DNA from: Candidatus Vecturithrix granuli
GTDB lineage: Bacteria; Moduliflexota; Moduliflexia; Moduliflexales; Moduliflexaceae
Assembly: GCA_000739535.1 (NCBI GenBank)
Contig: DF820466.1
Location: 351,071-402,832, forward strand
Length of the DNA: 51,762 nucleotides
Reading direction: 5' to 3'
Below the pieces are notes generated by a model that saw only the letters and a list, made by a program, of their open reading frames with translations, searched no databases and was not told where the DNA came from. A program made the position numbers and the translations under genes. Position 1 is the stretch's first letter. Every line of letters begins with the position of its first letter. Below are positions 4,501 to 38,350 of this stretch, piece after piece.

Positions 4501-4615
4501 GGTAATGGTTAAATGGGAAGTGATGCGTTCCCTGAGCGAAGTCGAAGGGAACAGTGAGCGGCTCGTTTCGACTTCGCTCAACGAGCGGGCATCACTTCCC
4601 ATTTAACCACTACCC
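4501..4615. repeat. MITE-like element, family A (GGTAGTGGTTAAATGGTAAGTGATG...CATCACTTACCATTTAACCACTACC), flanked by an 8-bp direct repeat CTTGCTTA
   Basis: Seen in sequence as a long imperfect palindrome. Other copies are at 32231-32344 (flanked by CAAATTTG direct repeats), 43164-43278 and 45359-45620 (carrying a nested family B element). Confidence 0.8.
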
Positions 4616-6445: not shown

Positions 6446-7418
6446 TCTGTCGAAAACCTTTGAAAACCGGCAGGATCTGCCGCCCTTTCAGGAGCTTGAG
6501 GACCCGACCGTGCAGCTTGAAGGCGTGCCGCAGGAAAATTGGCCGAAACGCCAGGTGGAACGCGAACCCTATAAAGCCGGCGGCGAACTGATTGAGGCCG
6601 TGAATTTAGCCATGGCTTCAGGCCGGCCCCTGCTGCTGCAAGGCGATCCGGGCTGCGGCAAAACGCGCCTGGCTCATGCGGTGGCGTATGAATTGCAACT
6701 GCCCCTGGAGGAATGTTACATCAAATCCACGACCCGCGCCCAGGATTTGCTCTACACCTACGATGCGGTCAATCGCTTATACGATGCGCAGTTAGGTGCT
6801 GATGGTCCGCGTATCAACAGCATACCCAAATGCCAGCAGATCGCCAATTACATTCGCTTCGGCCCTTTGGGGCGCGCCATTATCCGCGCGCAATATGGCC
6901 GCCGCTCCGTGGTGCTGATTGATGAAATTGACAAGGCGGATCTCGATTTCCCCAACGATCTGCTGCTGGAACTCGACCGCTTGCAATTTCAGGTGGCCGA
7001 AGCGCCGGAAATGCACTACGCCGTGCCGGAAGCTCAGGATAACCTGCGTCCGGTCGTGTTTGTGACCCATAACGAAGAAAAAGCTCTGCCCACCGCTTTT
7101 TTACGGCGCTGTATTTTTCAGTATGTCGAATTTCCCGACAGCGAAGCCGAATTACTGGAAATCCTGGCCGCGCACGACATGACGCACGACGCCTTAAATC
7201 ACGAAGCAGTCAGTGTGATCAGGGAATTTCGTCAGAGAACCGGCTACGAAAAACTGCCGGGCCTGAGCGAATTGCTCGACTGGGTGGGTTATATGCAGAC
7301 CCTTGAACAAGAACAGCCCGAATTGAAGTTAAAAGATAAAGTGCGGAAATTGCCCTTCATCGGCTTCCTGTTCAAACACCAGAGCGACCAGAAACGGGCG
7401 AAAAAGGAATTGTTATGA
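6426..7418 (+). CDS. AAA+ ATPase, MoxR/AAA_5-like
   Basis: Walker A is LLLQGDPGCGKTRLA and Walker B is VVLIDEIDKAD. The size (330 aa) and the position directly upstream of a vWA protein match MoxR-vWA pairs. RBS AGGAGA. The start overlaps the TIR gene. Confidence 0.75.
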   Translation: MSRHRFDLSKTFENRQDLPPFQELEDPTVQLEGVPQENWPKRQVEREPYKAGGELIEAVNLAMASGRPLLLQGDPGCGKTRLAHAVAYELQLPLEECYIKSTTRAQDLLYTYDAVNRLYDAQLGADGPRINSIPKCQQIANYIRFGPLGRAIIRAQYGRRSVVLIDEIDKADLDFPNDLLLELDRLQFQVAEAPEMHYAVPEAQDNLRPVVFVTHNEEKALPTAFLRRCIFQYVEFPDSEAELLEILAAHDMTHDALNHEAVSVIREFRQRTGYEKLPGLSELLDWVGYMQTLEQEQPELKLKDKVRKLPFIGFLFKHQSDQKRAKKELL

Positions 7419-7440
7419 TTATTCAGCCCGCGAAACACGC

Positions 7441-7745
7441 GAAACACGCGAAAAAAAGAAGATTCTTTCGTGAAGTTATGGAACTACAAGGATTGAGTTT
7501 ACAAGGGATGGGTACTGCGTGTATCCGGCGTCTCAGCAATCCCTTGTTCCCTCAATCCTTCTGGTAGTCTCGCCCTACGTGGCGGGTTTATCGGCGCCAT
7601 TCCCGCCGCGTAGGGCGGGACTACTTTTTTACGAAATTATGTAGTAGTTCCACAACTTGCACGGAAGAACCGAAAAATATATTTTTCAACCAAACGTTCA
7701 ATCCGGTTCTTCCTTTTCGTGTGTTTCGCGTGTTTCGCGGGCAGA
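7441..7745. repeat. Composite insertion between the ATPase and vWA genes: a family C MITE (7481-7655) with a family D element (7561-7625) nested near its right end, all bracketed by inverted CGAAACACGCGAAACACGCG repeats (7440-7460 and 7718-7740)
   Basis: Seen in sequence. The family C right terminus GTAGTTCCACA reappears at 7645-7655, after the inserted GGTAGTCTCGCCCTACGTGGCGGG...GGGCGGGACTAC block. Confidence 0.6.
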
Positions 7746-7749
7746 TCGA

Positions 7750-8955
7750 ATGACAACGCCACATTCAACATCAAAGCCGGAAACATATTTTCTGTGGCCC
7801 TTGTTCCAGCAATTGCGCCGGCGCCATTTTCCGCTGGGGCCAGATGATTATGACGCTTTACGCCAGGCAATTCGCGCCGGATTCGGCTGGCGCTCGCGCC
7901 GGGATTTGCGCAATCTCTGTTGTCGCTTATGGGCCAAATCCCGGCAGGAACGGACAACCTTGTTCGAACTGTTCGAACAATACGATGTGCCTGATTGGGA
8001 TGCGACGCCTTTCTTGAGCGCGGGCGCGGCCCAGAAGCGTGAGCCAGGCGCGAGCAAATCTCTTGCTGAGCCGCCGGCCGCGCCAGAGACGCCAACCGGC
8101 GCAGAGAGCGTGCAGATTGTGGCCGAGGCGCGCGGTGATTTGCCGGAAATCATTGCGTCTATTGAGTTCCCGCAGGAGCCGGTGGTCTTGACTCCGCAGT
8201 TGCCGTTAACCTATCGTGAAGTCGCACAGGCCTGGCGGCGTTTACGCCAGCCGGTGCGCACGGGGCCGGCCATTGATCTGGATTTAGACGCCACCATTGC
8301 GCGGCGCTGCCGGTTGGGCATTGCGGCTGAGGTGGTGTTAACGCCGCGCCGCCGTAACACCGCGCGTTTGCTGCTGTTGGTTGACCGCCAGGGTTCGATG
8401 ACGCCTTTTCACGCTCTGAGCGCGGAAGTCTGTCTGGCAATCGAGCAGGCCGGCAATCTAGAACGGGTCGCGTTCTACTATTTTCACGACGTGCCGGCCG
8501 AAGGCGCGGATGAATCGGTGCTGCACGGCTTAGATCAATTGTTTCCGACTTTAGATACGGTGTTTGCGGAGATTGAGCCGTTGCAGACCGGCACGGTCTA
8601 TGCAGATCCGCAGTTGTTACAGCCTCGCGCCCTGGAAGACGTGCTGGCCGAGGCGGCGCAGGGCGCGGCGGTCGTGATTCTAAGCGACGCCGGGGCCGCG
8701 CGCGGCCGTTACGATCTGCTGCGCCTGCTGGATACGGTCGCCTTTCTCAAAGCCTTGCAAAGCTATACGCGCCGCTTTGTGTGGCTGAATCCGCTGCCAC
8801 GCAAATATTGGGCGCACAGCACGGCCGAACAAATCCAGCGTTACGTCCCTATGTTCGCCTTAGATCGCGCCGGCATGTACCGCGCTGTTAACGTGTTGCG
8901 AGGGAAACCTATAACGGATGAAAGAATGGAACGGATGGGAGACTACAACGAATGA
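7750..8955 (+). CDS. von Willebrand factor A (vWA) domain protein, CoxE-like
   Basis: It has a MIDAS-like LLLLVDRQGSM, a later VVILSDAG (hhhhSDG motif) and a C-terminal FVWLNPLP that resembles CoxE-type vWA proteins. It follows the MoxR-like ATPase. The start is set at the first ATG downstream of the MITE (7750); the ORF-track start at 7657 lies inside repeat sequence. Confidence 0.6.
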   Translation: MTTPHSTSKPETYFLWPLFQQLRRRHFPLGPDDYDALRQAIRAGFGWRSRRDLRNLCCRLWAKSRQERTTLFELFEQYDVPDWDATPFLSAGAAQKREPGASKSLAEPPAAPETPTGAESVQIVAEARGDLPEIIASIEFPQEPVVLTPQLPLTYREVAQAWRRLRQPVRTGPAIDLDLDATIARRCRLGIAAEVVLTPRRRNTARLLLLVDRQGSMTPFHALSAEVCLAIEQAGNLERVAFYYFHDVPAEGADESVLHGLDQLFPTLDTVFAEIEPLQTGTVYADPQLLQPRALEDVLAEAAQGAAVVILSDAGAARGRYDLLRLLDTVAFLKALQSYTRRFVWLNPLPRKYWAHSTAEQIQRYVPMFALDRAGMYRAVNVLRGKPITDERMERMGDYNE

Positions 8956-9060
8956 AGGAATAGAACAAATTTGTAAGAGGCACTCATTCTGTTGTCCTAC
9001 AACGAATTGAGAAATGGAACGGATAAAAGACTACTACAGCATTTCGGAAATAAATATACA

Positions 9061-9176
9061 CTGGTAGTCCCGCCCTACGTGGCGGGTTCATCAGCATCAT
9101 TCTACGTGGCGGGTAGTCCCGCCCGACGTGGCGGGTTCATCAGCATCATTCCCGCCGCGCAGGGCGGGGCTACCAG
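9061..9176. repeat. MITE-like element, family D (GGTAGTCCCGCCCTACGTGGCGGG ... CCCGCCGCGCAGGGCGGGGCTACC), with the internal half-site duplicated
   Basis: Seen in sequence. Other members are at 7561-7625 and in the composite array at 25914-26168. Confidence 0.75.
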
Positions 9177-9245
9177 TGTGTACTTTTTAACGAATTTCTT
9201 TTTCAAATTCGTTTCATTTCTTAATTCGTTGTAGTGTTCATATTG

Positions 9246-10709
9246 ATGCTGCAAGAAAATTTAACGCATGAACAACTTTTAGCGCAGCGGCGGGTACAGG
9301 AGTTTGCGCAGGCGGCAGGGGAAAACGCGCTGCACCTGGCCTGCCATGCGGCTTTGCCGGCGGCGTTGACCCCGGAACTGCTGCACTTGCTGCGCATCAA
9401 TTTTTTTCTGGACCCAAAGGATACAAAGACCGGCGACCCCCTGCCCTATACGGCCGAAACGGATTTGTTGCTCTCACCTTTGTGCCAGGAAATCGGGGAG
9501 CAACTGTATGAAATGCCCTCGGAAGTGCGCAACGTGCTGTTGGAACAGTTGCAGCAAGAGTTTGGCGCAGCGCGCATCCGGCGCGTGGCGGCTTTGCTCT
9601 GGAAATACTCGCTGAATCCGCGCCGCGCGCCCTGGCATGAGAATCGCCGCCTGGAACGCGCGCAGCAGTTGACGGCCCTGAATTTCCTCGATCCGCAGCA
9701 AGCGCGTCAATGGTTAGAACAGGCCGAAGAAAAGCAGGGCCGTAGCAAGACAGACTTGCGCGATTGGTTCATTGCCATGCGGCGCGAACTGCCGCGCAGC
9801 GCGATTCTGAGCGGCGGCGCAAAAACAGAGCCTTCCACAACACCCCAGGAACAGGAGTTCGCCTTTGAGACCGTGCGTGTGGATCGTTACGGCAAAATCA
9901 TTGAACGCCAACGTGAAACCGCCTGGCAGTTTACGGAAGAACTCGGCAACGGCGTTATGCTGGAAATGGTCAGGATTCCCGCCGGCCGCTTCCTGATGGG
10001 CGCGCCGGAATCCGAAGAGGGATCAAGCGACGATGAACGCCCGCAGCACGAGGTGCAGATTGCCCCCTTTTATATGGGCCGCTATCCGGTGACGCAAGCG
10101 CAGTGGCGGGCGGTCGTGGAAGTCGCGCCCCAGATTGAGCGCCCTTTAGAGCCTGATCCCTCGTCTTTCAAAGGTGCACAGCGGCCGGTGGAAAATGTCA
10201 TTTGGGATGACGCGGTGGAGTTTTGCCGGCGTTTGTCGCAGCTCACAGGCCAGGAATATCGCCTGCCCTCGGAAGCGGAATGGGAATACGCCTGCCGCGC
10301 CGGCACGACCACCCCCTTTTATTTCGGAGAGACGATTACTACAGATTTAGCGAATTATGATGGGAGTGAGCCTCCCTACGGCGAAGGACCCAAAGGAGTT
10401 TATCACGAACAGACTACCGAAGTCGGTATATTTCCGCCTAACGCTTTTGGCCTCTACGACATGCACGGCAACGTGTGGGAATGGTGTCTGGATGTGTGGA
10501 ACGATAGTCATAAGAATGCTCCTACAGACGGTAGCGCACGGCAAGAAGGAGCAGACATTAATTTACGTTTGTTAAAAGGCGGCTCGTGGTTCGATCCGGC
10601 CTGGAGCCTGCGTTGCGCTTATCGTATCGGGGTCGGGCGTGACGGCAGGGTCGGCGTCAGGGGCTTTCGTCCGGTGCGGGCTGTCGGCGGCCAGTCTTCT
10701 GATTTCTGA
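9246..10709 (+). CDS. FGE-sulfatase (formylglycine-generating-enzyme fold, SUMF1-like) domain protein with a ~230-aa helical N-terminal domain
   Basis: The C-terminal half (MVRIPAGRFLMGAPE...ERPQHEVQIAPFYMGRYPVTQAQW...NVIWDDAVEFCRRLS...YRLPSEAEWEYACRAGTTTPFYFG...GLYDMHGNVWEWCLD...GGSWFDPAWSLRCAYR) carries the FGE-sulfatase signature. The start uses the ATG at 9246; an in-frame GTG at 9234 is also possible. Confidence 0.8.
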   Translation: MLQENLTHEQLLAQRRVQEFAQAAGENALHLACHAALPAALTPELLHLLRINFFLDPKDTKTGDPLPYTAETDLLLSPLCQEIGEQLYEMPSEVRNVLLEQLQQEFGAARIRRVAALLWKYSLNPRRAPWHENRRLERAQQLTALNFLDPQQARQWLEQAEEKQGRSKTDLRDWFIAMRRELPRSAILSGGAKTEPSTTPQEQEFAFETVRVDRYGKIIERQRETAWQFTEELGNGVMLEMVRIPAGRFLMGAPESEEGSSDDERPQHEVQIAPFYMGRYPVTQAQWRAVVEVAPQIERPLEPDPSSFKGAQRPVENVIWDDAVEFCRRLSQLTGQEYRLPSEAEWEYACRAGTTTPFYFGETITTDLANYDGSEPPYGEGPKGVYHEQTTEVGIFPPNAFGLYDMHGNVWEWCLDVWNDSHKNAPTDGSARQEGADINLRLLKGGSWFDPAWSLRCAYRIGVGRDGRVGVRGFRPVRAVGGQSSDF

Positions 10710-10740
10710 TTTTCTGTTTTTCTGTTTTCTGAAGGGGAGT

Positions 10741-10776
10741 CCAGAGGGGTTTACCCCTCTGGCGAAAAAATTTTTT
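10741..10776. terminator. Hairpin ccagaggggtttacccctctgg followed by an A6T6 tract; a putative bidirectional terminator between the convergent FGE-domain and PIN genes
   Basis: Seen in sequence. Confidence 0.4.
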
Positions 10777-10831
10777 GATATAAATTTACGTTTATTAATT
10801 TAAAAATATTAAGGTTTTTCATCCTTATGCT

Positions 10832-10980: not shown

Positions 10981-11388
10981 TTATTGAAAAGGATTGACAA
11001 TTTGCAGTTTTCCTTCAATCCTTTGCTTGTGCTGCATATCTTCTGAATATAAAATACTGCAAGAATTCTCCAGGGCCGAGGCAAGGATCATGCTATCCCA
11101 ATAAGAATAGGCGTATCTTTCAAGCATTGATAATGCCAATTTTATGGAATCCTGAGTAAGCAATGTCACAGTAAACGCCTTGAATAATTCGTCAACAACC
11201 GCACGCAGTTCCGAAACAGTCAGGTTCATTTTTCGATAAAGGACATTTGAAACTTCATTAATCACCTGTGTGCTGATGATACTTTTGCGAGTTCTCACAA
11301 GCTGTTGACATCTTTCCCTTTTATCCGGTTCATCTTCGGAATACAGATAAATAATGATATTCGAATCAATAAACACTTTATCTGGCAT
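10981..11388 (-). CDS. PIN-domain ribonuclease toxin (VapC-like)
   Basis: KVFIDSNIIIYLYSEDEPDKRERCQQL at the N-terminus and YSYWDSMILASAL...LYSED later on place acidic residues where a PIN fold needs them. The start is at Met-38 of the track ORF (11388), giving a 4-nt overlap with the upstream small ORF. Confidence 0.7.
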   Translation of the reverse strand: MPDKVFIDSNIIIYLYSEDEPDKRERCQQLVRTRKSIISTQVINEVSNVLYRKMNLTVSELRAVVDELFKAFTVTLLTQDSIKLALSMLERYAYSYWDSMILASALENSCSILYSEDMQHKQRIEGKLQIVNPFQ

Positions 11389-11593
11389 GGGCTTCTTCCC
11401 GGTTAAAGACATACCCTTTGGTTTTGATGCGCACCGCTTGAAAATCCTGATGAGGATGTTCAGCGTCAGCAGGAACAGCAGCCTCATCAAAAAGTACAAT
11501 CACCTTGACGGCCGCATGAGGTTTCAAAGCGTATATCAAAGGCACCTTAATCATTCCATCCGTAATTGTTGTCGTAAATTCGAGTGCTTGCAT
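11378..11593 (-). CDS. Putative antitoxin partner of the PIN toxin (about 72 aa)
   Basis: A small ORF lies immediately upstream of the PIN gene on the same strand, with an overlapping stop/start arrangement typical of type II TA pairs. The sequence family was not recognised with confidence. Confidence 0.45.
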   Translation of the reverse strand: MQALEFTTTITDGMIKVPLIYALKPHAAVKVIVLFDEAAVPADAEHPHQDFQAVRIKTKGYVFNREEAHAR

Positions 11594-11830
11594 CGTTATA
11601 CATTCCCTCAAAAAAATTATGACCCAGGCAATCTTATTCAAACTCTACTCGCAATATATGCGAATTCTCCATGACTGTCAAGGGTCTTTTCATATAATTC
11701 GACCTTAATTGCTCATGATGGAATCTTTGCTGCGCGTGATCTTGCTTGACATCCTCGCGGTTGGAATATATCTTAGGTTCAGAATTACAGGAATGAAGAA
11801 TAAGCAAGAATAAGAAAAGAGGCGAAACGT

Positions 11831-20497: not shown

Positions 20498-20905
20498 ATG
20501 AATGAACACATTGTCGGAACAATGAGGATTGGAATAATGGTTGAACAAGGCGAATTGATGCAAAAAAGCAAAAGCCGCACACCGCGTATGAAGCGCCGCG
20601 ACAAACGGATTTTGACGGAATTTGCCACTTTAGTCCGGCAGCAATTTCCGGATGCCCGCATCTGGGCCTTTGGCTCACGGGTGAAGGGGACAGCCACAAA
20701 AGAATCGGATTTGGATGTCTGCGTTGTATTGCCGACCTTAACTCGTGCGATTGATCATACGCTCATGGGCGTTGCCTGGCAAGTCGGATTCGACCATGAG
20801 GTCGTGATTTCGACCGTGACCTACTCAACAGAAGAATTTGAACGCGGGCCCTGTTCGCAAAGTGCGTTAGTCCACAATATTTTAACACAGGGGGTACAGG
20901 CATGA
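20498..20905 (+). CDS. Minimal nucleotidyltransferase (MNT) domain protein
   Basis: The Pol-beta-like NTase motif GSRVKGTATKESDLDVCVV (GS...DxD) is present. ATGA overlap with the downstream HEPN gene. Confidence 0.8.
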   Translation: MNEHIVGTMRIGIMVEQGELMQKSKSRTPRMKRRDKRILTEFATLVRQQFPDARIWAFGSRVKGTATKESDLDVCVVLPTLTRAIDHTLMGVAWQVGFDHEVVISTVTYSTEEFERGPCSQSALVHNILTQGVQA

Positions 20906-21318
20906 CGGCGGAAATGCAAGCGTTAATCAGCTATCGTGTCGAGCAGGCGGATGAAGCCCTGGATTCCGCTCAATCGTTATTGGAGCGCGGTAACTATCGT
21001 TCTGTGGTCAATCGGGCGTATTATGCCATGTTTTATGTTGTGCTGGCGTTGCTTGCGCCGATGAAACAACAAACCTCCAGACATGCATGGGTCATGACGC
21101 TGTTTGACCGGGATTTCGTCAAAATGGGGGTGTTTGGCAAAGATTTTTCACGTTGGTTGCACGAAGCGTTCAATCTTCGCCAGCGCTCAGATTATCAAGA
21201 ATTGTTTACCGTGCCGGTCGAAGACGCACAAACTGTACTTGAGCATGCTCAGCAGTTTGTGGCGGGCGTGAAAACGCATATCACCTCACAGCTTTCAACG
21301 TCAGACGCTGGGGATTAA
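20902..21318 (+). CDS. HEPN domain protein (MNT-HEPN pair)
   Basis: It is helical and carries an R-x(4-6)-H-like motif region RQRSDYQ. It is translationally coupled to the MNT gene. Confidence 0.7.
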   Translation: MTAEMQALISYRVEQADEALDSAQSLLERGNYRSVVNRAYYAMFYVVLALLAPMKQQTSRHAWVMTLFDRDFVKMGVFGKDFSRWLHEAFNLRQRSDYQELFTVPVEDAQTVLEHAQQFVAGVKTHITSQLSTSDAGD

Positions 21319-21465
21319 GTAACTACAAGAATGAAGAATAAACAAGAATTTTCAGACCGTTGCTGAATAGCAATGTTTGTTTGAAAAAAAGTGCGACTAT
21401 CAGGCAAAAACCAGAAAATCCTTGCTTATAAAAAATCCTTGTAGTTATTTAAGAGACGTGTAAGC

Positions 21466-24400
21466 ATGATGACAGAAAAAACATATCAGGTCTTTCTGAG
21501 TTTTAACAGCCAGGATCGGGAGGCAGTGGAACAGATTGCTCTGTATCTGGCTGACAAGGCCGGGCTTCGTCCCTGGTTCGATCAATGGGAACTGATTCCG
21601 GGAGAACCGTGGACCCGCAATCTGGAACGCGGACTGGCAGCCTCTGCAACCTGCGCCGTGTTTGTCGGCAAGAGCGGCGAAGGCCCCTGGCAAATCCGCG
21701 AAGTCGAAACCGCGCTGCGGCACCAGGTCGAGAACTATGACTTCCGGGTCATTCCCGTGCTCTTGCCGGACGCTCCGCAAAAACCGGCGCTCCCCATGTT
21801 TCTCTCCGGGAATATGTGGGTTGACTTTCGTAAAGCCGGACTTGAAGATGACGACGCGCTCTGGCGGTTAGAATGCGGCATTCGCGGAAAATCGCCGGGA
21901 CGCGGCCGTCCGCAGCCAGCCGAACAAATCCAGGAAGACCAGGGAGAGCACAATCAGATCACGCCCGGATTTGACCCCACGCCTCTGCGCAACGCCTATC
22001 TGCGCTGGCTGCTGGAGCAGAGCAGTCAGCTTTCGCTGGCCGGCATTGACAAAAAAGCGGCCGGCAAAGGCGCGGAAGACCATTTAAATTTGAGCGCGAT
22101 TTATACGGCCCTGCTGACGCTTGAAGCTGAGCATGAGCGCGATCAGAAACCGGGTTTTTTGGAAAAACCCGGTTTCTCGTCCGAGGAAAGATCGCAGCGC
22201 CGCCTGTCGGCCGTGGCCCAACTCAACCGTCACGCCCGGTTAGTGCTCTTAGGCGACCCCGGCAGCGGTAAGAGCACCTTTGTCAATTTTGTGGTTTTAT
22301 GTCTGGCCGGAGAACTCTTATTCCCATCGGAAAATGGGCAAGAACCTGCCGACGGGAAAGAGGTTTACCCGAATCTGAAACTTTTGACCGCGCCGCTGCC
22401 GGATGATGAAGGCAACGATGCAGAGGAACCCCAGCCCTGGGAGCATGGCGCGCTGCTGCCGGTGCGCGTGATTCTGCGCGACTTCGCGGCGCGCGGTCTG
22501 CCGCCGGCCGGGCAGGAGGCTAAAGCCAGACACTTATGGCAGTTCATCGTCAAAGAATTACAGGCGAACATGCTTGGCGACTACGCTCCCTTTCTGCGCC
22601 AGCACTTGCAGAGCACAGGCGGTCTGATGCTGCTGGATGGCCTGGATGAAGTGCCGGAAGCGGACCAGCGCCGCCCGCAGATCAAGCAGGTGGTCGAGGA
22701 TTTCGGCCGCTGCTTTCCGCGCTGCCGTATGCTCGTCACCAGCCGCACCTACGCCTATCAGGAGCAGCACTGGCGCTTGAGCCATTTTGAAGACGTCACG
22801 CTGGCGTCTTTCAGCCAGGGACAAATCCGACGTTTTGTGGAGCGCTGGTACGCCTATATCGGCCGTCTGCGCGGCCTGAGCGCGGAGAATGCGCAGGGAC
22901 GGGCGGAATTGCTCAAGCGGGCGATCCTGAACAGCGACCGGCTCTACAGTCTGGCCGAACGGCCCCTGCTGCTGACGCTCATGGCCAGTCTGCACGCCTG
23001 GCGCGGCGGCAGCCTGCCGGAAAAACGCGAAGAACTGTATAACGATACCGTAGATTTGCTGCTCGACTGGTGGGAAAGTGCGAAAATGGCGACTACCGCC
23101 GATGGCAGTCGCAAGCTTGTGCAGCCCAGCCTGACCGAATTGCTCAATGTGGGCAAAGACTGCGTGCGCACAGCGTTGAATACCCTGGCGTTCCGGGCGC
23201 ACAAAGACCAGCAGCAGCTTCAGGGCACCGCCGATCTTGCCGAAACGGATCTGGTGGCTGAACTGATGGAAGTCAGCCAGAATCCAGACCTGAAGCCCGG
23301 GCGGTTAATTGAGCACCTCCGCGACCGCGCCGGATTGCTGGCGCCGCGCGGGGTCAAGGTCTATACCTTTCCGCACCGCACCTTTCAGGAATATCTGGCC
23401 GCCTGTTATTTGACCGAGGTGCAGGACGAGGACGAGCAATACCCGGAAAATGCCGCCCTTTTAGCGCGCCAGGAACCAAACCGCTGGCGCGAAGTGGCGT
23501 TGCTGGCCGGGGCCAAAGCCGCGCGCGGCAGCGCGCCGACCCTCTGGGCTTTGGCCGACGCCTTGTGTTATCAAGACGTGTCCGACACTTCTGACCTGGC
23601 TGACGCCTGGGGCGCGCTGCTGGCCGGCCAACTTGTAGCGGAAAACGCCGGCCTGCATAAGATCAGTCCACGCAACCAGGCCAAAATCAAGCGCATTTGT
23701 GAGTGGCTGGTCGCTATTGTCACAGAACGTGTTCCCTTCGACTCCGCTCAGGGAACGGGAACGGTCTTGCCGGCCGTGGAACGTGCACTGGCCGGGAACA
23801 TCCTGGCGCAGCTTGGGGACCCGCGTCCGGGCGTGGGCTGTCGCTTCCGTTCCCTGAGCGGAGTCGAAGGGAGCGGAGTCGAAGGGAGCGGAGTCGAAGG
23901 GAGCGGAGTCGAAGGGAGCGGAGTCGAAGGGAGCATGAGGCTGCCGAATATTGAATGGTGTGAGGCGTCGGCCGGGGCATTTATTATGGGCAGTGATGAC
24001 TACAGTGATGAACGTCCGCCGCATCGCGTGACGCTTTCAAGATCCTACGCCCTCAGCCGCTATCCGGTCACCAATGCGCAATATCAGACCTTTGTGACGG
24101 ATGGAGGTTATACGGAGAAATGGCAGACATGCTGGTCAAAAGATGGATGGAAATGGAAAGAAGAGCACGCGAAAACCGGACCAGGGAAATATGGCGGGGA
24201 GTTTGACCTGCCCAATCATCCGGTGATTGTGGTGTGCTGGCATGAGGCTGCCGCATTTTGTCAATGGTTGACGCGCCGTTTGCAGAAAATAGGGGAGTTG
24301 ACGGCGGATCAAGAAATTCGTTTACCGACTGAAGCTGAATGGGAAAAAGCGGCGCGCGGTGCGGATGGCCGCACCTATCCCTGGGGCAATGAGGCGATCA

Positions 24401-24741
24401 CACCGGAACATGCCAATTATGACGATACCGGCTTAGGCGTGACAAGCGCGGTCGGCTGTTTTCCGCGCGGCGCAAGCCCCTGCGACTGTGAAGACATGAG
24501 CGGCAATGTGTGGGAGTGGTGTTTAGATAGTTGTGATTTGGATAAGAATTATAATCTTGTCACTGATACCTACACTGATGGTATTATTGATCCACTCTGT
24601 ACAACGGGCTCGGACCGCGTGCTGCGGGGCGGCTCCTGGAGCAGCGACGCCAGGGGTTGCCGGTCGGCGTTCCGCTACGGGGGCGCCCCCGGCGACCGCA
24701 GCGGCATCGTCGGGTTCCGCCTCTTGAGGACGCCTTCGTAG
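21466..24741 (+). CDS. STAND NTPase with TIR N-terminus, central NACHT domain and a C-terminal FGE-sulfatase-like domain
   Basis: TIR: YQVFLSFNSQDREAVEQIALYLADK...WFDQWELIPGEPW. NACHT: Walker A LVLLGDPGSGKSTF, Walker B MLLDGLDEV, then TSR. FGE: FIMGSDDYSDERPPHRVTL...YPVTNAQY...RLPTEAEWEKAARG...GNVWEWCLD...GGSWSS. An in-frame (SGVEG)x5 tandem repeat and a KPGFLEKPGFS segment inside it are derived from dispersed repeat families. Confidence 0.85.
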   Translation: MMTEKTYQVFLSFNSQDREAVEQIALYLADKAGLRPWFDQWELIPGEPWTRNLERGLAASATCAVFVGKSGEGPWQIREVETALRHQVENYDFRVIPVLLPDAPQKPALPMFLSGNMWVDFRKAGLEDDDALWRLECGIRGKSPGRGRPQPAEQIQEDQGEHNQITPGFDPTPLRNAYLRWLLEQSSQLSLAGIDKKAAGKGAEDHLNLSAIYTALLTLEAEHERDQKPGFLEKPGFSSEERSQRRLSAVAQLNRHARLVLLGDPGSGKSTFVNFVVLCLAGELLFPSENGQEPADGKEVYPNLKLLTAPLPDDEGNDAEEPQPWEHGALLPVRVILRDFAARGLPPAGQEAKARHLWQFIVKELQANMLGDYAPFLRQHLQSTGGLMLLDGLDEVPEADQRRPQIKQVVEDFGRCFPRCRMLVTSRTYAYQEQHWRLSHFEDVTLASFSQGQIRRFVERWYAYIGRLRGLSAENAQGRAELLKRAILNSDRLYSLAERPLLLTLMASLHAWRGGSLPEKREELYNDTVDLLLDWWESAKMATTADGSRKLVQPSLTELLNVGKDCVRTALNTLAFRAHKDQQQLQGTADLAETDLVAELMEVSQNPDLKPGRLIEHLRDRAGLLAPRGVKVYTFPHRTFQEYLAACYLTEVQDEDEQYPENAALLARQEPNRWREVALLAGAKAARGSAPTLWALADALCYQDVSDTSDLADAWGALLAGQLVAENAGLHKISPRNQAKIKRICEWLVAIVTERVPFDSAQGTGTVLPAVERALAGNILAQLGDPRPGVGCRFRSLSGVEGSGVEGSGVEGSGVEGSGVEGSMRLPNIEWCEASAGAFIMGSDDYSDERPPHRVTLSRSYALSRYPVTNAQYQTFVTDGGYTEKWQTCWSKDGWKWKEEHAKTGPGKYGGEFDLPNHPVIVVCWHEAAAFCQWLTRRLQKIGELTADQEIRLPTEAEWEKAARGADGRTYPWGNEAITPEHANYDDTGLGVTSAVGCFPRGASPCDCEDMSGNVWEWCLDSCDLDKNYNLVTDTYTDGIIDPLCTTGSDRVLRGGSWSSDARGCRSAFRYGGAPGDRSGIVGFRLLRTPS
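22146..22176. repeat. Family F terminator-like palindrome embedded in frame inside the NACHT gene
   Basis: gaaaccgggttttttggaaaaacccggtttc, encoding KPGFLEKPGF. It is identical in core to the intergenic copies at 1940, 30594, 35427 and 50355. Confidence 0.7.
23857..23931. repeat. Five tandem 15-nt copies (gagcggagtcgaagg) inside the NACHT CDS, seeded by a 23-nt match to the internal segment of family A MITEs
   Basis: gttccctgagcggagtcgaaggga at 23849-23872 is identical to 45535-45558 inside the family A element. The array encodes SGVEGSGVEGSGVEGSGVEGSGVEG between the NACHT/helical region and the FGE domain. Confidence 0.75.
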
Positions 24742-24764
24742 CCCTTGATCCTTTTACCCTTTTA

Positions 24765-24791
24765 CCCTTTGCGCAGCAAAGGGGGTTTTTC
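24765..24791 (+). terminator. Rho-independent terminator candidate for the NACHT gene (ccctttgcgcagcaaaggggg + TTTTT)
   Basis: Seen in sequence, 24 nt after the stop codon. Confidence 0.5.
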
Positions 24792-25211
24792 CTGCGGGCG
24801 AGGCGACAGCCGCCCGCCGCTGCGCGTGCGATAGCCGCGCAGCGCGAAAAATTTTTTTAAGGCCCGGGGAAGAGATTGGTCTGGGAATTCAGCCCCAGGA
24901 ACGCCGGACTATGTTTGGGAAATGACAGGAGAGTTGGAGAACTCCAGGGACAAGAGATAAGAAGAGGATGAGATTGAAGGCACTTTGGCATGGGGGAGAA
25001 CTACAAGAATGGCATGTAAGCAAGAATCAGGGCGCGGCCGGTACAACGAATTAAAGAATAAAACGAATTTCCCCATCTCATTCGTTGATTTCTTTAATTC
25101 GTTGTAGTGGTTCGACTGCTGATATGATAAAGAATTGCCGGTTGACAAAAATCAAGAACAGATATATCATAAACTGTAAACAGATAACATCATGAAACAG
25201 AGGAAGACGGT

Positions 25212-25469
25212 ATGGCAAACATGGCAGAACAGCAATTATTGACTCGCATTGTTGTGAATCCCAAAATGATGGTCGGTAAGCCTGTCATTAAAGGCACGCG
25301 CCTGACCATTGAATACATTCTCGGATTATTTGCCCACGGCGCGACAGCCGCAGAGATTTTAGAGGAATATGAAGGTTTAACCTATGAAGATTTGCAAGCG
25401 TGTTTCCTCTTTGCCTCAAAATCTCTGGAAAGTACGCTGTTTATGCCTTTGGCAATGGAGGCCGCATAA
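25212..25469 (+). CDS. DUF433 domain protein (antitoxin-like partner of DUF5615)
   Basis: MVGKPVIKGTRLTIEYILGLFAHGATAAEILEEYEGLTYEDLQACFLFA matches the DUF433 core. Confidence 0.65.
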   Translation: MANMAEQQLLTRIVVNPKMMVGKPVIKGTRLTIEYILGLFAHGATAAEILEEYEGLTYEDLQACFLFASKSLESTLFMPLAMEAA

Positions 25470-25819
25470 ATGCGCTTTCTTGTCGATGAGTGACTGGCCC
25501 GGCTGTCGCTCGATGGCTGCGAACACAGGAGCATGACGTGTTCTCCGTATATGATGACGCTCGCGGGTTAGACGATAATGAGATTATCCAAAAAGCCTTT
25601 GCAGAAAATCGTATTCTTATTACGAATGATAAAGATTTCGGAGAAAAAATTTTCCGTGAGAACTATCCCCACAAAGGCGTAATTCTATTACGGCTTGAAG
25701 ATGAGCGTTTCAGAAATAAAATAGCCGTTCTTCGGAGTTTTTTCCATACATATCCAGATATTTCTCTGACAGAACGGTTTGTTGTGATTACAGAAACAAA
25801 AATTCGTTTTGTTGGATAA
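25470..25819 (+). pseudogene. DUF5615 (PIN-like) gene with an apparent frameshift after codon 7
   Basis: The ATG at 25470 gives MRFLVDE, then a stop. The remaining ~100 codons continue in another frame from 25490 (ARWLRTQEHDVFSV...ILITNDKDF...), which is the typical DUF5615 body. This is either a true frameshift or a sequencing indel. Confidence 0.5.
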
Positions 25820-25913
25820 CGGTTGACATCAAGATATTGTTGGCAAAATGATCGTATTCATCACACTCGCCTCTTTGGGTTAATTCTTCCGAACAGCCTG
25901 GAACTAGTACATA

Positions 25914-26168
25914 CTTTCGGATATAAGTACACAATGAAATAAATCTGGTAGCCCCGCCCTACGTGGCGGGAATGACTTTCGGATATAAGTACACAATGAA
26001 ATAAATCTGGTAGCCCCGCCCTACGTGGCGGGAATGACGCCGATAAACCCGCCACGTAGGGCGGGACTACCAATAAACTACCAATAAACCCGCCACGTAG
26101 GGCGGGACTACCAATAAACCCGCCACGTAGGGCGGGACTACCAATGTGTATTTATTTCCGAAACGCTG
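25914..26168. repeat. Composite family D array: a duplicated 62-nt left unit and three tandem ~30-nt right units (CCCGCCACGTAGGGCGGGACTACCAATAAA), bounded by the inverted flanks ctttcggatataagtacaca / tgtgtatttatttccgaaacg
   Basis: Seen in sequence. Confidence 0.7.
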
Positions 26169-30396: not shown

Positions 30397-30637
30397 AACA
30401 AACCCTCCTTGAAGATGTGAGTGAAAATTAGATGAACACAATTACGACCAATGGGCATCCATACTCATTTTCTGGATGCACTTCTCTGGCGAAGGGTAGA
30501 AATGCCCTTTACCAAACAACTTCCGTGTATATTCAATCCGACAGCTTTGTCAAGTGAAAAAATCCTTTCTTCTATGGATATTTGATAGCACCTAAAAACC
30601 GGGTTTCTTCAAGAAACCCGGTTTTTCTATCAGATTA

Positions 30638-32038: not shown

Positions 32039-32230
32039 ACATTTCTCCATGTCAATGAGGCGTGCAAACCTGGGTTTGCCTGATAAATCAGCATTTTGCA
32101 AACTGAAGTTTGCACTCCGGCATGTTCATCTCATGCGTGGTTGTAATTCCTGCTTTAGCAGGAGTAAACGCTTGAAACTGTTGCACGAAATTGTTAAACC
32201 TGTTATCTGCATTATTACCTTACAAATTTG

Positions 32231-32344
32231 GGTAGTGGTTCCATGGTAAGTGATGCCCGCTCGTTGAGCGAAGTCGAAACGAGCCGCTCACCGTTCCCTT
32301 CGACTTCGCTCAGGGAACGCATCACTTACCATGGAACCACTACC
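32231..32344. repeat. Family A MITE copy flanked by 8-bp direct repeats CAAATTTG
   Basis: Seen in sequence. It is adjacent to the family J palindrome at 32375-32423. Confidence 0.8.
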
Positions 32345-32442
32345 CAAATTTGTTGTGATACGTCGAGTTATCCCGGAGTGCGAAAGCTCTGCTTTCGCTG
32401 CAAAAGCAGAGCTTTTGCACTCCTGCCTTCCTGTTGTGAAGG

Positions 32443-35172: not shown

Positions 35173-35479
35173 ACATCCTCCTCCTCTTTTGACAATCCTA
35201 TCCATTCAATGTTCACGTTTGATTGCCTTTTATCGCAATCAGTCTCTCCAATACTCATCCGATCTAATGATATTTTTGAGCTAACATTTCAGAAGGTTCG
35301 AACCTTGTCAATAGAGAATTTATGTCAGATGTGCTGAATGTCGCCTCTCGTCATTGAAAGAAGAAAAGATTCATGTTTTTGTCTTGACGGAGATGGCGAG
35401 CACCCAGGGAAATGGGATAAATTTTCAAAAAACCGGGTTTTTTCAAAAAACCCGGTTTTTCGACTCCTGATGGCTTTTC

Positions 35480-37996: not shown

Positions 37997-38350
37997 TTCT
38001 CCTGGGGATCAACCACAGATTTCGCAGATTTCACAGATTTTCACATCCGAGAAATCTGCAAAAATTTGTGGCGATTTTTTTCGACTTCAGTGGTTTCGGG
38101 AATGAACCTTCAAATTTCCGAAACGCTTTCTGTTTCGGGAAAGCCGTTTCCTTCATTCCCGAAACAACTGAAACTCAAATGTCAAAAAGATCAATTAAAA
38201 AATCATCATACAATTTTCTTTACTTTGTATAATATGTGAATATAAAAGAGACAACTTTTTCCTGAAAAAAATATCTTTCTGAATTGAAGATCGTGAAAAG
38301 ACCCTGTAACATTATCCTTGATTTTTAGAGAACAATGGGAGGAAATAGGT

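What the first reader, a model, noticed from the sequence alone, without database searches (positions are those of the whole stretch)
21466..24741. TIR-NACHT-FGE STAND NTPase: single-chain sensor-switch-effector protein
Seen in sequence: one 1091-aa ORF combines an N-terminal TIR, a NACHT NTPase (GDPGSGKST, LLDGLDEV, TSR), a long helical region and a C-terminal FGE-sulfatase-like domain. This is the domain order of an antiviral STAND protein (effector-NTPase-sensor), here with an enzyme-derived fold as the sensor. An MNT-HEPN pair sits directly upstream and a DUF433/DUF5615 pair downstream, so the region is a small defence island.
Basis: partly seen in the sequence, partly recalled or inferred. 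Interest (0 to 1): 0.7.

Follow-up and report, generated by a model that had tools for sequence, protein, structure and literature searches.

The report
Bacterial NLR-like TIR-NACHT-FGE immune sensor
One 1,091-residue bacterial protein joins an NAD-cleaving TIR domain, an NLR-type NACHT switch and a lectin-fold (FGE-like) binding domain whose tip looks rewritten by a mutagenic retroelement; the protein is real and well formed, but this type of protein has already been described.

Summary
ORF 21466-24741 (+) encodes TIR_2 (E 5e-24), NACHT (above Pfam's cut-off, with GDPGSGKST, DGLDE and TSR) and FGE-sulfatase (E 1e-53). The structure model is confident, and full-length collinear homologues rule out a chimera.

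The FGE-like domain is not an enzyme. It lacks FGE's cysteine pair and EgtB's iron domain, and is the lectin-fold "FGS" sensor.

New here: its last ~32 codons look like a variable region (VR) of a diversity-generating retroelement (DGR).
- 23 of 32 codons are NNC, and adenine is depleted.
- Differences from real template repeats (TRs) fall on TR adenines (p ~1e-6).
- The closest full-length homologue has Avd, reverse transcriptase and TR directly downstream.
- About a quarter of family loci carry a DGR.
- The window has no TR, Avd or reverse transcriptase, so this is a remote or orphaned target.
- Its non-coding 3' flank is better conserved than the coding sequence.

The toxin-antitoxin-like neighbours are not conserved partners, so "defence island" is weakly supported.

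Effector-NACHT-FGS "antigen-receptor-type" proteins and their DGR diversification are published (Kaur 2020, Kibby 2022/23, Doré 2024, Nature 2026). This is a new member of a known, still untested kind.

The parts
21466..24741 (+). Whole gene: TIR-NACHT-FGE(FGS) protein, 1091 aa
   Evidence: ORF; Pfam domains; AF2 model with pLDDT 83.3 and pTM 0.77; more than 2400 homologues. GC is 59.6% against 49.7% for the window.
21484..21885 (+). TIR domain (about aa 7-140), the predicted NADase effector
   Evidence: TIR_2 E 5e-24. A profile of 7 homologous TIRs hits NAD+ hydrolase AbTIR (7uwg/8g83, E ~1e-25), BtpA/TcpB and PdTIR.
21700..21702 (+). Codon of Glu79, the candidate catalytic glutamate of the TIR
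   Evidence: W75 and E79 are invariant in the TIR alignment A4. E79 aligns with the Glu of the 'W..yEl' motif of AbTIR and BtpA. That this Glu is catalytic comes from prior knowledge of TIR NADases.
21895..21957 (+). Disordered linker between TIR and the NACHT module (aa 144-164)
   Evidence: pLDDT below 50. This is the point where homologues carry other N-terminal modules.
21979..22875 (+). NACHT N-terminal helices plus the NACHT NTPase core (aa ~172-470)
   Evidence: Pfam NACHT above its cut-off. Foldseek matches NLRC4 (4kxf, E 3e-10), NLRP3 and NLRP9.
22252..22278 (+). Walker A, GDPGSGKST (aa 263-271)
   Evidence: G263, P265, G266, G268, K269 and T271 are invariant in 74 sequences.
22145..22177 (+). 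In-frame palindromic repeat insertion (EKPGFLEKPGF, aa 227-237)
   Evidence: Perfect 15+15 nt inverted repeat. Four more copies in the window all lie just downstream of stop codons. Absent from homologues. The loop has pLDDT below 50.
22624..22650 (+). Walker B, LMLLDGLDE (aa 387-395): Asp391, small residue Gly392, acidic Asp394-Glu395
   Evidence: G392, L393, D394 and E395 are invariant and D391 is at least 90% conserved. This is the NACHT-type Walker B pattern, known from the Koonin and Aravind definition.
22738..22746 (+). Sensor-1 motif TSR (aa 425-427)
   Evidence: T425 and R427 are invariant and S426 is at least 90% conserved.
22876..23835 (+). Winged-helix and helical domains C-terminal to the NTPase (aa ~471-790)
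   Evidence: Helix-rich with high pLDDT. Included in the roughly 600-650-column Foldseek alignments to NLRC4 and NLRP3.
23733..23763 (+). Left arm of the in-frame inverted repeat (PFDSAQGTG)
   Evidence: 31-nt arm, 94% complementary to 23842-23872. It is a copy of a dispersed 25-nt motif found 6 times in the window against 0 expected.
23842..23934 (+). Right arm plus a 15-nt x 5.3 perfect tandem repeat (SLSGVEGS(GVEGS)4)
   Evidence: TRF gives 100% matches. The stretch has pLDDT below 50 (aa 807-818). The same insertion sits at the same place in Ca. Vecturithrix granuli P0003 and P0017. RNA fold of 23720-23945 is -118 kcal/mol, z -4.45.
23932..24738 (+). FGE-sulfatase-like (FGS, C-type-lectin-fold) domain, the predicted ligand sensor (aa 823-1091)
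   Evidence: Pfam E 1.4e-53. PDB sequence hits: EgtB C-domain, ToxD, PorK, FGE and TvpA. Foldseek: ToxD TM 0.66, TvpA 0.62, PvdO 0.67. No FGE cysteine pair.
24625..24720 (+). DGR-type variable-region (VR) scaffold, codons 1054-1085
   Evidence: 23 of 32 codons end in C against 33% ORF-wide, the top 3 of 1060 windows. Adenine is 8% against 21%. Mismatches to real TRs concentrate on TR adenines: L081 19/26 against 20/70; L118 17/24 against 11/72, p 9e-7. pLDDT is below 50 at 1060-1065.
24721..24860 (+). Conserved 3' end and non-coding flank: LLRTPS tail, CCCTTTTA-type 8-nt repeats (24750-24770), hairpin 24765-24783, hairpins 24794-24817 and 24818-24844, A5T7 tract 24847-24859
   Evidence: 85-89% identical to the flanks of L083 and both L205 paralogues, against 63-70% for the FGE coding body. 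Terminator-like hairpin. A related flank lies downstream of the genuine DGR target in L081.
20498..21318 (+). Neighbour: MNT (20498-20905) and HEPN (20902-21318) pair, not a conserved partner
   Evidence: Pfam. MNT hits PADLOC candidate PDC-S09. Found near only 1 of 84 homologous loci. Terminator-like hairpin at 21358-21375.
25212..25819 (+). Neighbour: DUF433 (25212-25469) and DUF5615/PIN-like (25490-25819) pair, not a conserved partner
   Evidence: Pfam. No PADLOC hit. Found near only 1 of 84 homologous loci.

Best explanation
This is a cytoplasmic, single-chain NLR-like receptor of the bacterial 'antigen-receptor-type' NACHT class.

**Proposed mechanism.**
1. The C-terminal FGE-like domain is a catalytically dead lectin-fold (FGS) module.
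2. Its last ~30 residues form a ligand-binding tip built on a DGR variable-region scaffold.
3. When this tip binds a non-self molecule, most likely a phage protein, it releases the NACHT NTPase from autoinhibition.
4. The NACHT module exchanges nucleotide and oligomerises.
5. The clustered N-terminal TIR domains then form active NADase sites (Glu79).
6. They deplete NAD+ or make a cADPR-type signal, which arrests or kills the infected cell of a filamentous KSB3-type bacterium.

**Origin of the tip.** It was written by mutagenic retrohoming from a template repeat that is not in this window. The gene is therefore a remote (trans) or orphaned DGR target.

**Shown here:** the domains, the motifs, the folds, the loss of FGE and EgtB catalytic features, the VR footprint, and DGR cassettes next to close homologues.

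**Inferred:** ligand identity, autoinhibition and oligomerisation, NADase activity, the abortive-infection outcome, and whether diversification is still going on (about 0.4).
For: **Domains and fold.**
- All three domains score above curated cut-offs.
- NACHT Walker A, the NACHT-type Walker B and sensor-1 are invariant in 74 homologues.
- The fold matches NLRC4, NLRP3 and NLRP9.
- The TIR profile hits the NADases AbTIR and BtpA at E ~1e-25, with invariant Glu79.

**Sensor domain is not an enzyme.**
- The FGE domain is nearest to non-FGE lectin-fold relatives, including the DGR variable protein TvpA.
- It lacks the Cys336/Cys341 pair.

**Family behaviour.** The conserved NACHT-FGE core carries swappable N-termini, as conflict systems do. 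Among the best 120 hits these are TIR in 8, zinc ribbon in 15, effector-associated domains in 5, and metallophosphatase in 1.

**DGR link.**
- 13 of 65 family loci have a TR copy with adenine-specific mismatches.
- Reverse-transcriptase homologues lie in 19 of 84 loci and Avd in 12.
- The closest full-length TIR homologue, P0002, has bAvd, RVT_1 and a TR directly downstream.
- The window's VR shows NNC codons, adenine depletion and TR-adenine-biased differences.
- The 3' tail and flank are conserved above the coding level across at least 3 contigs.

**Literature.** Published work describes this class and its proposed role.
Against: - No experiment exists for any FGS-sensor STAND (PMC10907252).
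- PADLOC finds no known defence family apart from weak TIR matches.
- There is no TR, Avd or reverse transcriptase in 51.8 kb, so current diversification is unproven.
- The VR footprint also fits an old, now frozen VR.
- Three repeat insertions lie inside the ORF. They could mean relaxed constraint, although all are in frame and in disordered loops.
- The neighbouring toxin-antitoxin-like pairs do not co-occur with the family, so genomic context adds little support for defence.
Confidence: 0.65

Rival explanations
1. The machine is the same but the purpose differs. It would be a self/non-self, kin-recognition or programmed-cell-death regulator of a filamentous, multicellular-type bacterium rather than an antiviral sensor. 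The variable lectin tip would then read a bacterial or endogenous ligand.
For: The window comes from a KSB3-type organism. The best named hits are Ca. Vecturithrix granuli and candidate division KSB3. Kaur et al. tie these systems to multicellular prokaryotes and allow non-viral 'invasive entities'. One 10-Mb contig carries at least 5 paralogues, two of them 1.3 kb apart. There is no phage or defence-system context in the window.
Against: bNACHT and Avs relatives that have been tested protect against phage. TIR NADase effectors are typical of abortive infection. Nothing in the sequence points to a self ligand.
Confidence: 0.15
2. A decaying or frozen relic: a horizontally acquired former DGR target that has lost its retroelement, is being colonised by genomic repeats and is no longer functional, or has only a fixed specificity.
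For: No TR, Avd or reverse transcriptase in the window. GC is 59.6% against 49.7%. There are three in-frame insertions of dispersed hairpin repeats. The exact protein is absent from the public collection.
Against: The 1091-codon frame is intact. All catalytic and NTPase motifs are kept. The model is confident, with the insertions confined to loops. 10 of the 11 VR codons that align with AAC codons of the metagenome template repeat L118 still end in C (sequences), which argues against long neutral drift. The non-coding 3' element is conserved at 85-89%.
Confidence: 0.12
3. The C-terminal domain is an active FGE/EgtB/PvdO-type redox enzyme, and the protein is an NTPase-regulated enzyme, as the database name 'SUMF1/EgtB/PvdO family nonheme iron enzyme' implies.
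For: Strong FGE-sulfatase profile match. The best PDB sequence hit is EgtB. Source annotations of homologues use this name.
Against: FGE Cys336 is Ser1060, at a hypervariable position. EgtB, SenA and PvdO models score far below their cut-offs, and EgtB, SenA and OvoA match only their FGE-like part, with no DinB-like iron domain. The would-be active-site loop is the least conserved and lowest-confidence part of the domain.
Confidence: 0.04
4. Assembly artefact: a chimeric ORF joined across repeats.
For: Perfect tandem and inverted repeats lie at the boundary between the helical region and the FGE domain.
Against: Collinear full-length homologues from independent sources cover 99% of the protein. 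The segment between the repeat arms is the conserved linker LPAVERALAGNILAQLGDPRPGVG, present in all homologues. Two Vecturithrix proteins have the same arrangement.
Confidence: 0.01

Closest known systems
'Antigen-receptor-type' bacterial NACHT proteins with a C-terminal FGS domain (Kibby et al., bioRxiv 10.1101/2022.07.19.500537; Kaur et al. 2020, PMC7159879)
   Same: [quoted passage not shown] The architecture and proposed logic are identical.
   Different: I could not place this protein in one of their numbered clades. It has no DGR in cis and carries lineage-specific repeat insertions. The tested bNACHTs had other C-termini.
DGR-diversified STAND/CLec targets of Thiohalocapsa PB-PSB1 and related multicellular bacteria (Doré et al. 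2024, PMC10907252)
   Same: A central NACHT or nSTAND, a C-terminal CLec/FGE domain holding the VR, and sometimes an N-terminal TIR. Found in multicellular bacteria and proposed to act as antigen sensors.
   Different: In those loci the reverse transcriptase, Avd and TR are identified. Here none lies within 21 kb upstream or 27 kb downstream. The phylum differs (KSB3-type).
P0002 / locus L081 (JGI metagenome 3300056874), the closest full-length homologue
   Same: 56% identity over 99% of the protein, with the same TIR-NACHT-FGE order. It also shares the CCCTTTTA-type repeats and the hairpin plus A/T tract after the stop codon.
   Different: L081 has bAvd, RVT_1 and a TR (11460-11595) directly downstream, with 20 of 28 VR/TR mismatches at TR adenines. 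The window has 470 nt of non-coding DNA there, followed by a DUF433/DUF5615 pair.
Avs1-5 antiviral STAND proteins and other experimentally tested STAND sensors (PMC13581612)
   Same: Tripartite effector-STAND-sensor logic. The 2026 survey lists FGE-sulfatase-like domains among STAND sensor types.
   Different: Avs sensors are mostly TPR-like repeat arrays that bind terminase or portal. No PADLOC model other than three TIR-region models matches this protein. The ligand here is unknown.
Treponema denticola TvpA (PDB 2y3c), a DGR variable protein
   Same: An FGE-type C-type-lectin fold with the variable region at the C-terminal end. Sequence hit E 6e-12; Foldseek E 8e-9, TM 0.62.
   Different: TvpA is a stand-alone surface lipoprotein. 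Here the domain is the C-terminus of a cytoplasmic NTPase-TIR protein.
Formylglycine-generating enzyme (human SUMF1, PDB 1y1e/2aii; bacterial FGEs 5nxl, 2q17)
   Same: The same Pfam family and fold.
   Different: The catalytic cysteine pair is not kept: Cys336 aligns with Ser1060, and a 3-residue deletion lies just after the Cys341 position. This is not an FGE.
AbTIR / BtpA(TcpB) / PdTIR bacterial TIR NADases (PDB 7uwg, 4lzp, 3h16)
   Same: These are the best structural-database relatives of the TIR (E 1e-25 to 3e-22), with the conserved Trp-x3-Glu motif.
   Different: They are small effector or virulence proteins with coiled-coil N-termini. Here the TIR is the N-terminal output of a STAND.
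Animal NLRs (NLRC4, NLRP3, NLRP9)
   Same: The NACHT NBD-helical-winged-helix module matches at Foldseek probability 1.0 (E 3e-10 to 1e-9).
   Different: About 13% sequence identity. Animal NLRs use LRR sensors and CARD or PYD adaptors instead of an FGS sensor and a TIR enzyme.

Membership tests
STAND NTPase, NACHT clade | P-loop Walker A, GxxxxGK[ST] | tested here: met
   GDPGSGKST at 263-271. G263, G266, G268, K269 and T271 are invariant in 74 sequences.
STAND NTPase, NACHT clade | NACHT-type Walker B: hhhhD followed by a tiny residue, with acidic residues 2-4 positions downstream (DG[LF]DE) | tested here: met
   LMLLD391-G392-L393-D394-E395. G392 to E395 are invariant. The definition is from prior knowledge (Koonin and Aravind 2000, cited).
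STAND NTPase, NACHT clade | Match to the curated NACHT profile above its gathering score | tested here: met
   PF05729: 41.2 bits against 26.7, E 2e-10. Only profile positions 72-164 match because of an insertion after Walker A.
STAND NTPase, NACHT clade | NBD plus helical plus winged-helix fold as in NLRs | tested here: met
   Foldseek: NLRC4 4kxf E 3e-10 and NLRP3 8swk E 9e-10, both at probability 1.0, with about 620-650 aligned columns, on a model with pLDDT 83.
STAND NTPase, NACHT clade | Ligand-triggered, nucleotide-dependent oligomerisation | not testable with these tools
   Needs biochemistry or cryo-EM.
TIR-domain NADase (AbTIR/BtpA-like) | TIR fold and profile match above cut-off | tested here: met
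   PF13676: 85.5 bits against 28. The profile hits AbTIR, BtpA and PdTIR at E 1e-25 to 3e-22.
TIR-domain NADase (AbTIR/BtpA-like) | Conserved catalytic glutamate | tested here: met
   E79 is invariant in A4 and aligned to the Glu of AbTIR and BtpA. That this Glu is catalytic is prior knowledge.
TIR-domain NADase (AbTIR/BtpA-like) | NAD+ cleavage activity | not testable with these tools
   Needs an enzyme assay.
Formylglycine-generating enzyme (true FGE) | FGE-sulfatase fold | tested here: met
   PF03781 E 1.4e-53. PDB FGEs match at about 1e-15.
Formylglycine-generating enzyme (true FGE) | Copper-binding catalytic cysteine pair (human Cys336 and Cys341) | tested here: not met
   BLASTP against the PDB-verified human FGE segment gives Cys336 -> Ser1060 and Cys341 -> Cys1065, with a 3-residue deletion just after that position. 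Positions 1059-1065 have no majority residue in the family.
EgtB/OvoA/SenA sulfoxide or selenoxide synthases | N-terminal DinB-like iron-binding domain plus FGE-like domain, with a score above the NCBIfam cut-off | tested here: not met
   EgtB 114 bits against 360, SenA 102 against 420, OvoA 70 against 400. Only model positions from about 170 onward match, which is the FGE-like part.
DGR variable protein (target of a diversity-generating retroelement) | C-terminal VR on a CLec/FGE fold | tested here: met
   The scaffold RGGSW-x7-RxAxR-x4-P-x2-R-x4-GFR is identical in layout to the VRs of proven family targets. TvpA fold match.
DGR variable protein (target of a diversity-generating retroelement) | Adenine-mutagenesis footprint in the VR | tested here: met
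   23 of 32 codons are NNC and adenine is 8%. Differences from TRs fall on TR adenines: 17/24 against 11/72, p 9e-7; 19/26 against 20/70, p 1e-4.
DGR variable protein (target of a diversity-generating retroelement) | A cognate template repeat (TR) in the genome | tested here: inconclusive
   None in the 51.8-kb window (blastn). The rest of the genome is not available. The one metagenome scan found TRs with the same scaffold, but from other organisms.
DGR variable protein (target of a diversity-generating retroelement) | DGR reverse transcriptase and Avd | tested here: inconclusive
   No tblastn hit in the window with the L081 Avd or reverse transcriptase. They are present next to 19 (RT) and 12 (Avd) of 84 homologous loci, including the closest full-length homologue. 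Remote targets are documented.
Avs1-5, bNACHT or other systems modelled in PADLOC-DB v2 | Match of the NTPase or sensor part to a defence-system model | tested here: not met
   Only three weak TIR-region hits: SAVED_TIR, PDC-S66 and bSEFIR, at E 5e-7 to 4e-6. NCBIfam antiphage EruA scores 22 bits against 1000.
Defence island | Clustering with recognised defence systems, conserved across relatives | tested here: inconclusive
   The flanking toxin-antitoxin-like pairs are present, but each is seen near only 1 of 84 homologous loci. A second TIR/AAA/vWA/FGE gene set lies 11 kb upstream, with housekeeping-type genes in between.

The most novel reading that the evidence does not exclude
The gene is a live, remote target of a DGR encoded elsewhere in this KSB3-type genome. 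The strongly conserved non-coding block after the stop codon would then be a portable target-recognition module that lets one retroelement service many scattered NLR-like paralogues. That block holds the LLRTPS tail, the 8-nt CCCTTTTA repeats and the hairpin. This would amount to an adaptive-immunity-like repertoire of hypervariable TIR/NACHT receptors. The 7-8-nt periodic repeat that follows the stop codon in most family members is an element I did not find described.
Probability: 0.3. Interest if true: 0.6.

Novelty: new member of a known kind. Interest (0 to 1): 0.35.

Why it matters
Effector-NACHT-FGS proteins are the bacterial proteins that most resemble a receptor with an antibody-like variable tip on an NLR chassis, and none has been tested experimentally.

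- This example is clean and full-length, has a recognisable enzymatic output (a TIR with its catalytic Glu), and gives a confident structure model. It is a reasonable candidate for such a test.
- It shows that members without a retroelement nearby still keep the VR codon footprint and a conserved 3' cis element. This bears on how many 'orphan' FGS sensors are in fact serviced in trans.
- As a discovery it is incremental. The architecture, its DGR link and its enrichment in multicellular bacteria are all published.

Tried and rejected
**Look-ups that found nothing.**
1. Exact-sequence look-ups of the window protein and of the Vecturithrix proteins P0003 and P0017 found nothing on record. I could not read their DNA or identify the source contig.
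2. I searched the window for a template repeat by blastn of both FGE gene ends against the whole window, and found none. tblastn with the L081 Avd and reverse transcriptase also found nothing.
3. Rfam at gathering thresholds and the tRNA scan of the whole window found nothing.

**Searches of limited value.**
It yielded genuine TRs with the same scaffold from other organisms, which served as controls. No contig came from this organism, as megablast of the whole window found nothing.
5. PADLOC and NCBIfam placed the protein in no named defence family.

**Ideas rejected.**
6. I considered that the inverted repeats flanking the gene (21418-21446 and 24999-25027) might be integron attC-like cassette boundaries. 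By eye they lack the RYYYAAC/GTTRRRY core sites and look like copies of dispersed intergenic repeats. I did not test this formally.
7. I considered that MNT-HEPN or DUF433-DUF5615 work together with the gene. I rejected this because they do not co-occur with the family.
8. I considered an enzymatic role for the FGE domain and rejected it.
9. Antisense ORFs inside the gene (22558-23202 and 23461-24024 on the - strand) are most likely by-products of high GC and of the repeat. I did not pursue them.

Full report
**Observation.**

Pfam gives three domains, all above their curated cut-offs:
- TIR_2 at residues 9-131 (E 5e-24).
- NACHT at 357-462 (41.2 bits against 26.7).
- FGE-sulfatase at 833-1088 (E 1.4e-53).

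The quoted motifs are real and are invariant or nearly invariant in an alignment of 74 homologues:
- GDPGSGKST at 263-271.
- LLDGLDEV at 389-396.
- TSR at 425-427.

The NACHT profile matches only from Walker B onward, because about 45 residues are inserted after Walker A.

An AlphaFold2 model built on that alignment is confident (mean pLDDT 83.3, pTM 0.77). Only four internal stretches fall below pLDDT 50: the TIR-NACHT linker (144-164), residues 223-241, residues 807-818, and residues 1060-1065.

Foldseek against the PDB splits the model as expected:
- The middle matches NLRC4, NLRP3 and NLRP9 (E 3e-10 to 1e-9, probability 1.0).
- The C-terminus matches EgtB's C-domain, ToxD, TvpA and PvdO.

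The ORF is not a chimera. P0002, P0003 and P0006 are collinear over 99% of its length at 53-56% identity.

**What each part is.**

*TIR.* A profile of seven homologous TIRs hits the NAD+ hydrolase AbTIR, BtpA/TcpB and PdTIR at E 1e-25 to 3e-22. Trp75 and Glu79 are invariant, and Glu79 aligns with the glutamate of their W-x3-E motif. From prior knowledge, that residue is the catalytic glutamate of TIR NADases.

*NACHT.* It has the clade's Walker B signature: Asp391, tiny Gly392, acidic Asp394-Glu395.

*FGE-like domain.* It is not an FGE.
- I aligned it to a human FGE segment whose sequence I first verified against the PDB. Cys336 falls on Ser1060, Cys341 on Cys1065, and three residues are deleted just after the Cys341 position.
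- It is not an EgtB-type enzyme either. EgtB, SenA and OvoA models score 70-114 bits against cut-offs of 360-420 and match only their FGE-like halves.
- It is therefore the catalytically dead C-type-lectin-fold 'FGS' domain.

**The family.**

More than 2400 proteins match at E <= 1e-10. They share a conserved NACHT-FGE core with interchangeable N-termini. Among the best 120 hits:
- TIR_2 in 8.
- A zinc ribbon in 15.
- Effector-associated domains in 5.
- A metallophosphatase in 1.

A scan of species-representative genomes found the family in Anaerolineae, Caldilineae, Desulfococcaceae, Thermoanaerobaculia, Nitrospirales, Planctomycetes, Chlorobi and others.

The window itself is from a KSB3-type bacterium:
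- The best named relatives of the gene are from Candidatus Vecturithrix granuli.
- A YgfK-like protein at 45654-48791 is closest to 'candidate division KSB3' proteins.

That KSB3 bacteria are filamentous is prior knowledge, not tested here.

**The link to a diversity-generating retroelement (DGR).**

Because TvpA, a DGR variable protein, was among the structural relatives, I tested the family for DGR signatures.
- In 13 of 65 loci, the last 110-140 nt of the gene has a second copy nearby. Mismatches fall almost only on adenines of that second copy, for example 19 of 19 in L026, 24 of 25 in L015 and 14 of 14 in L073. This is the template repeat (TR) versus variable region (VR) signature.
- Homologues of a DGR reverse transcriptase lie in 19 of 84 loci, and Avd in 12.
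- The closest full-length TIR-NACHT-FGE homologue, P0002, is followed directly by bAvd, RVT_1 and a TR with 20 of 28 mismatches at TR adenines.

The window has no TR and no Avd or reverse transcriptase. Yet codons 1054-1085 carry the footprint:
- 23 of 32 codons end in C, against 33% ORF-wide. Only the three overlapping windows at this spot, out of 1060, reach that count.
- Adenine is 8% against 21%.
- Differences from the L081 TR fall on 19 of 26 adenine sites against 20 of 70 other sites (p 1e-4).
- Differences from three same-scaffold TRs found in unrelated metagenomes fall on 17 of 23-24 adenine sites against 11-12 of 72-73 other sites (p ~1e-6).
- The same residues are the unconserved ones in the family consensus RGGxW-x7-RxAxR-x4-P-x2-R-x4-GFR and the low-confidence loop of the model.

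**A conserved 3' element.**

The last 21 coding nucleotides (LLRTPS) plus 45 nt of non-coding flank are 85-89% identical between the window and three other genes: the gene for P0001 (L083) and two paralogues on a 10-Mb ENA contig (L205). The FGE coding bodies of these genes are only 63-70% identical.

The block contains:
- CCCTTTTA-type 8-nt repeats (24750-24770).
- An 8-bp hairpin (24765-24783).
- Further hairpins ending in an A5T7 tract.

L081, a proven DGR target, has the same type of flank on the VR side but not after its TR.

Across the family, 38 of 63 loci show a 7-8-nt periodic motif just after the stop codon, either xxTCTGR or CCCTTTTA. Where I read the flank, a GC hairpin and an A/T run usually follow.

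I read this as a cis element tied to DGR targeting and/or termination. I did not find it described in the papers I read. None of the three related genes has a reverse transcriptase within 10 kb, so in this sub-lineage scattered targets without a local DGR are the rule.

**Neighbourhood.**

- The MNT-HEPN pair ends 147 nt upstream, and a terminator-like hairpin lies between it and the gene (21358-21375).
- DUF433-DUF5615 starts 470 nt downstream.
- Each pair occurs near only 1 of 84 homologous loci, so they are neighbours, not partners.
- The gene's GC is 59.6%, against 49.7% for the window and 41-50% for the toxin-antitoxin-like genes. ABC-transporter genes flank the 5.4-kb stretch.
- 'Small defence island' is a fair label for a variable spot holding three mobile-type modules, but the evidence for it is weak.

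**Mechanism.**

The best-supported reading is an NLR-like sensor-switch-effector:
1. A ligand binds the variable lectin tip.
2. The NACHT module oligomerises in a nucleotide-dependent way.
3. The TIR NADase is activated by proximity.
4. NAD+ is depleted or a signal is made, and the cell arrests or dies.

The parts and their intact motifs are shown. The steps between them are inferred from experimentally studied Avs/bNACHT proteins and TIR NADases. Whether the VR is still being rewritten in trans cannot be decided from this window; I put it at about 0.4.

**Comparison with the literature.**

- Kaur et al. 2020 defined the FGS domain in NTP-dependent conflict systems of multicellular prokaryotes. 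[quoted passage not shown]
- Kibby et al. classed bacterial NACHT C-termini and named the 'antigen receptor type: FGS domain type', likely diversified by DGRs.
- Doré et al. 2024 showed DGRs diversifying CLec/FGE domains of NACHT and nSTAND proteins, some with TIR N-termini. They stated that such CLec-STAND proteins had not been characterised experimentally.
- A 2026 survey lists FGE-sulfatase-like domains among STAND sensor types.

This protein is therefore a new member of a known, experimentally untested kind.

**Verdict.**

The added value of this second look is threefold:
- The loss of FGE chemistry is demonstrated.
- The C-terminal tip carries a DGR-VR footprint although no retroelement lies nearby.
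- A 3' cis element is conserved above the level of the coding sequence.

Noticed in passing
window 5279-10709 (+): A second TIR/FGE conflict-type gene set: a TIR_2 protein (5279-6445, 388 aa), a MoxR-like AAA_5 ATPase (6426-7418), a VWA_CoxE protein (7657-8955) and a 491-aa FGE-sulfatase protein (9234-10709). It resembles the MoxR-vWA 'ternary' systems of Kaur et al. Its TIR is 59% identical to the TIR of the main gene, and the two FGE domains are 35% identical. So one genome uses the same effector module in a split and in a fused design.
   Followed up: partly
window 10709-10790: Downstream of the second FGE gene lies the same kind of flank as in the NACHT-FGE family: TTTTCTG x4, the hairpin CCAGAGGGG-TTTA-CCCCTCTGG, then A6T6. 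Near-identical GGAGTCCAGAGGGG hairpins follow family genes in L012, L082 and L045.
   Followed up: partly
L001-L084, 60 nt after the stop codon of the NACHT-FGE gene: In 38 of 63 loci from many phyla the best self-similarity lag is 7 or 8 nt (xxTCTGR or CCCTTTTA repeats). In the flanks read a GC-rich hairpin and an A/T run usually follow. The CCCTTTTA type occurs in DGR-positive L081 and L038, whose reverse transcriptases are each other's closest. I found no description of this in the papers read.
   Followed up: partly
window 22145-22177; also 1942-1970, 30596-30624, 35430-35458, 50356-50385: A palindrome, GAAACCGGGTTTTTC..GAAAAACCCGGTTTC, occurs five times. Four copies sit just after stop codons, like terminators. 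The fifth is in frame inside the TIR-NACHT-FGE gene and encodes EKPGFLEKPGF in a disordered loop.
   Followed up: partly
window 23733-23763 and 23842-23934: Two inverted, in-frame copies of a dispersed hairpin motif flank the conserved linker LPAVERALAGNILAQLGDPRPGVG. The right copy is expanded to five perfect 15-nt units (GVEGS x5). The predicted RNA stem is -118 kcal/mol, z -4.45. The same arms lie at the same two positions in two Ca. Vecturithrix granuli proteins that are only 53-58% identical. It is unexplained whether this reflects shared ancestry with concerted evolution or repeated insertion.
   Followed up: partly
window ~4500-4615, ~32230-32345, ~43170-43280, ~45525-45610: Intergenic repeat elements of roughly 85-115 nt; three of the four copies are bounded by GGTAGTGGTTAAATGGTAAGTGA-type terminal inverted repeats, giving them a MITE-like look. 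Each has two internal hairpins whose loops are complementary to each other (GAGCGRAGTCGA and TCGACTYCGCTC). They are the source family of the in-ORF motif.
   Followed up: no
window 25880-26145: Arrays of a REP-like palindrome, CCCGCCCTACGTGGCGGG, inside perfect 62-nt x2 and 30-nt x2.3 tandem repeats. They lie between the DUF5615 gene and the ABC-transporter ATPase.
   Followed up: no
L205 10001-12808 and 14138-16987 (ENA ERZ21831104, 10.1-Mb contig): Two NACHT-FGE paralogues lie 1.3 kb apart with no reverse transcriptase within 10 kb. Their VRs share the window's scaffold and 3' flank, and one still has several AAC codons. At least five of the best 120 homologues come from this one contig, so it carries a large paralogous repertoire.
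   Followed up: partly
window 38318-40543 (+): A 741-aa predicted lipoprotein-like ORF with no Pfam hit. Its last ~200 residues are almost purely D/E/G/S/N repeats, which explains the GC-skew spike of 0.34 at 40-41 kb.
   Followed up: no
window 10981-11499 (-) and 50625-51308 (+): A PIN-domain gene lies just after the second FGE gene, and a DDE_5 transposase fragment lies near the window end. These are further signs of a mobile-element-rich region.
   Followed up: no
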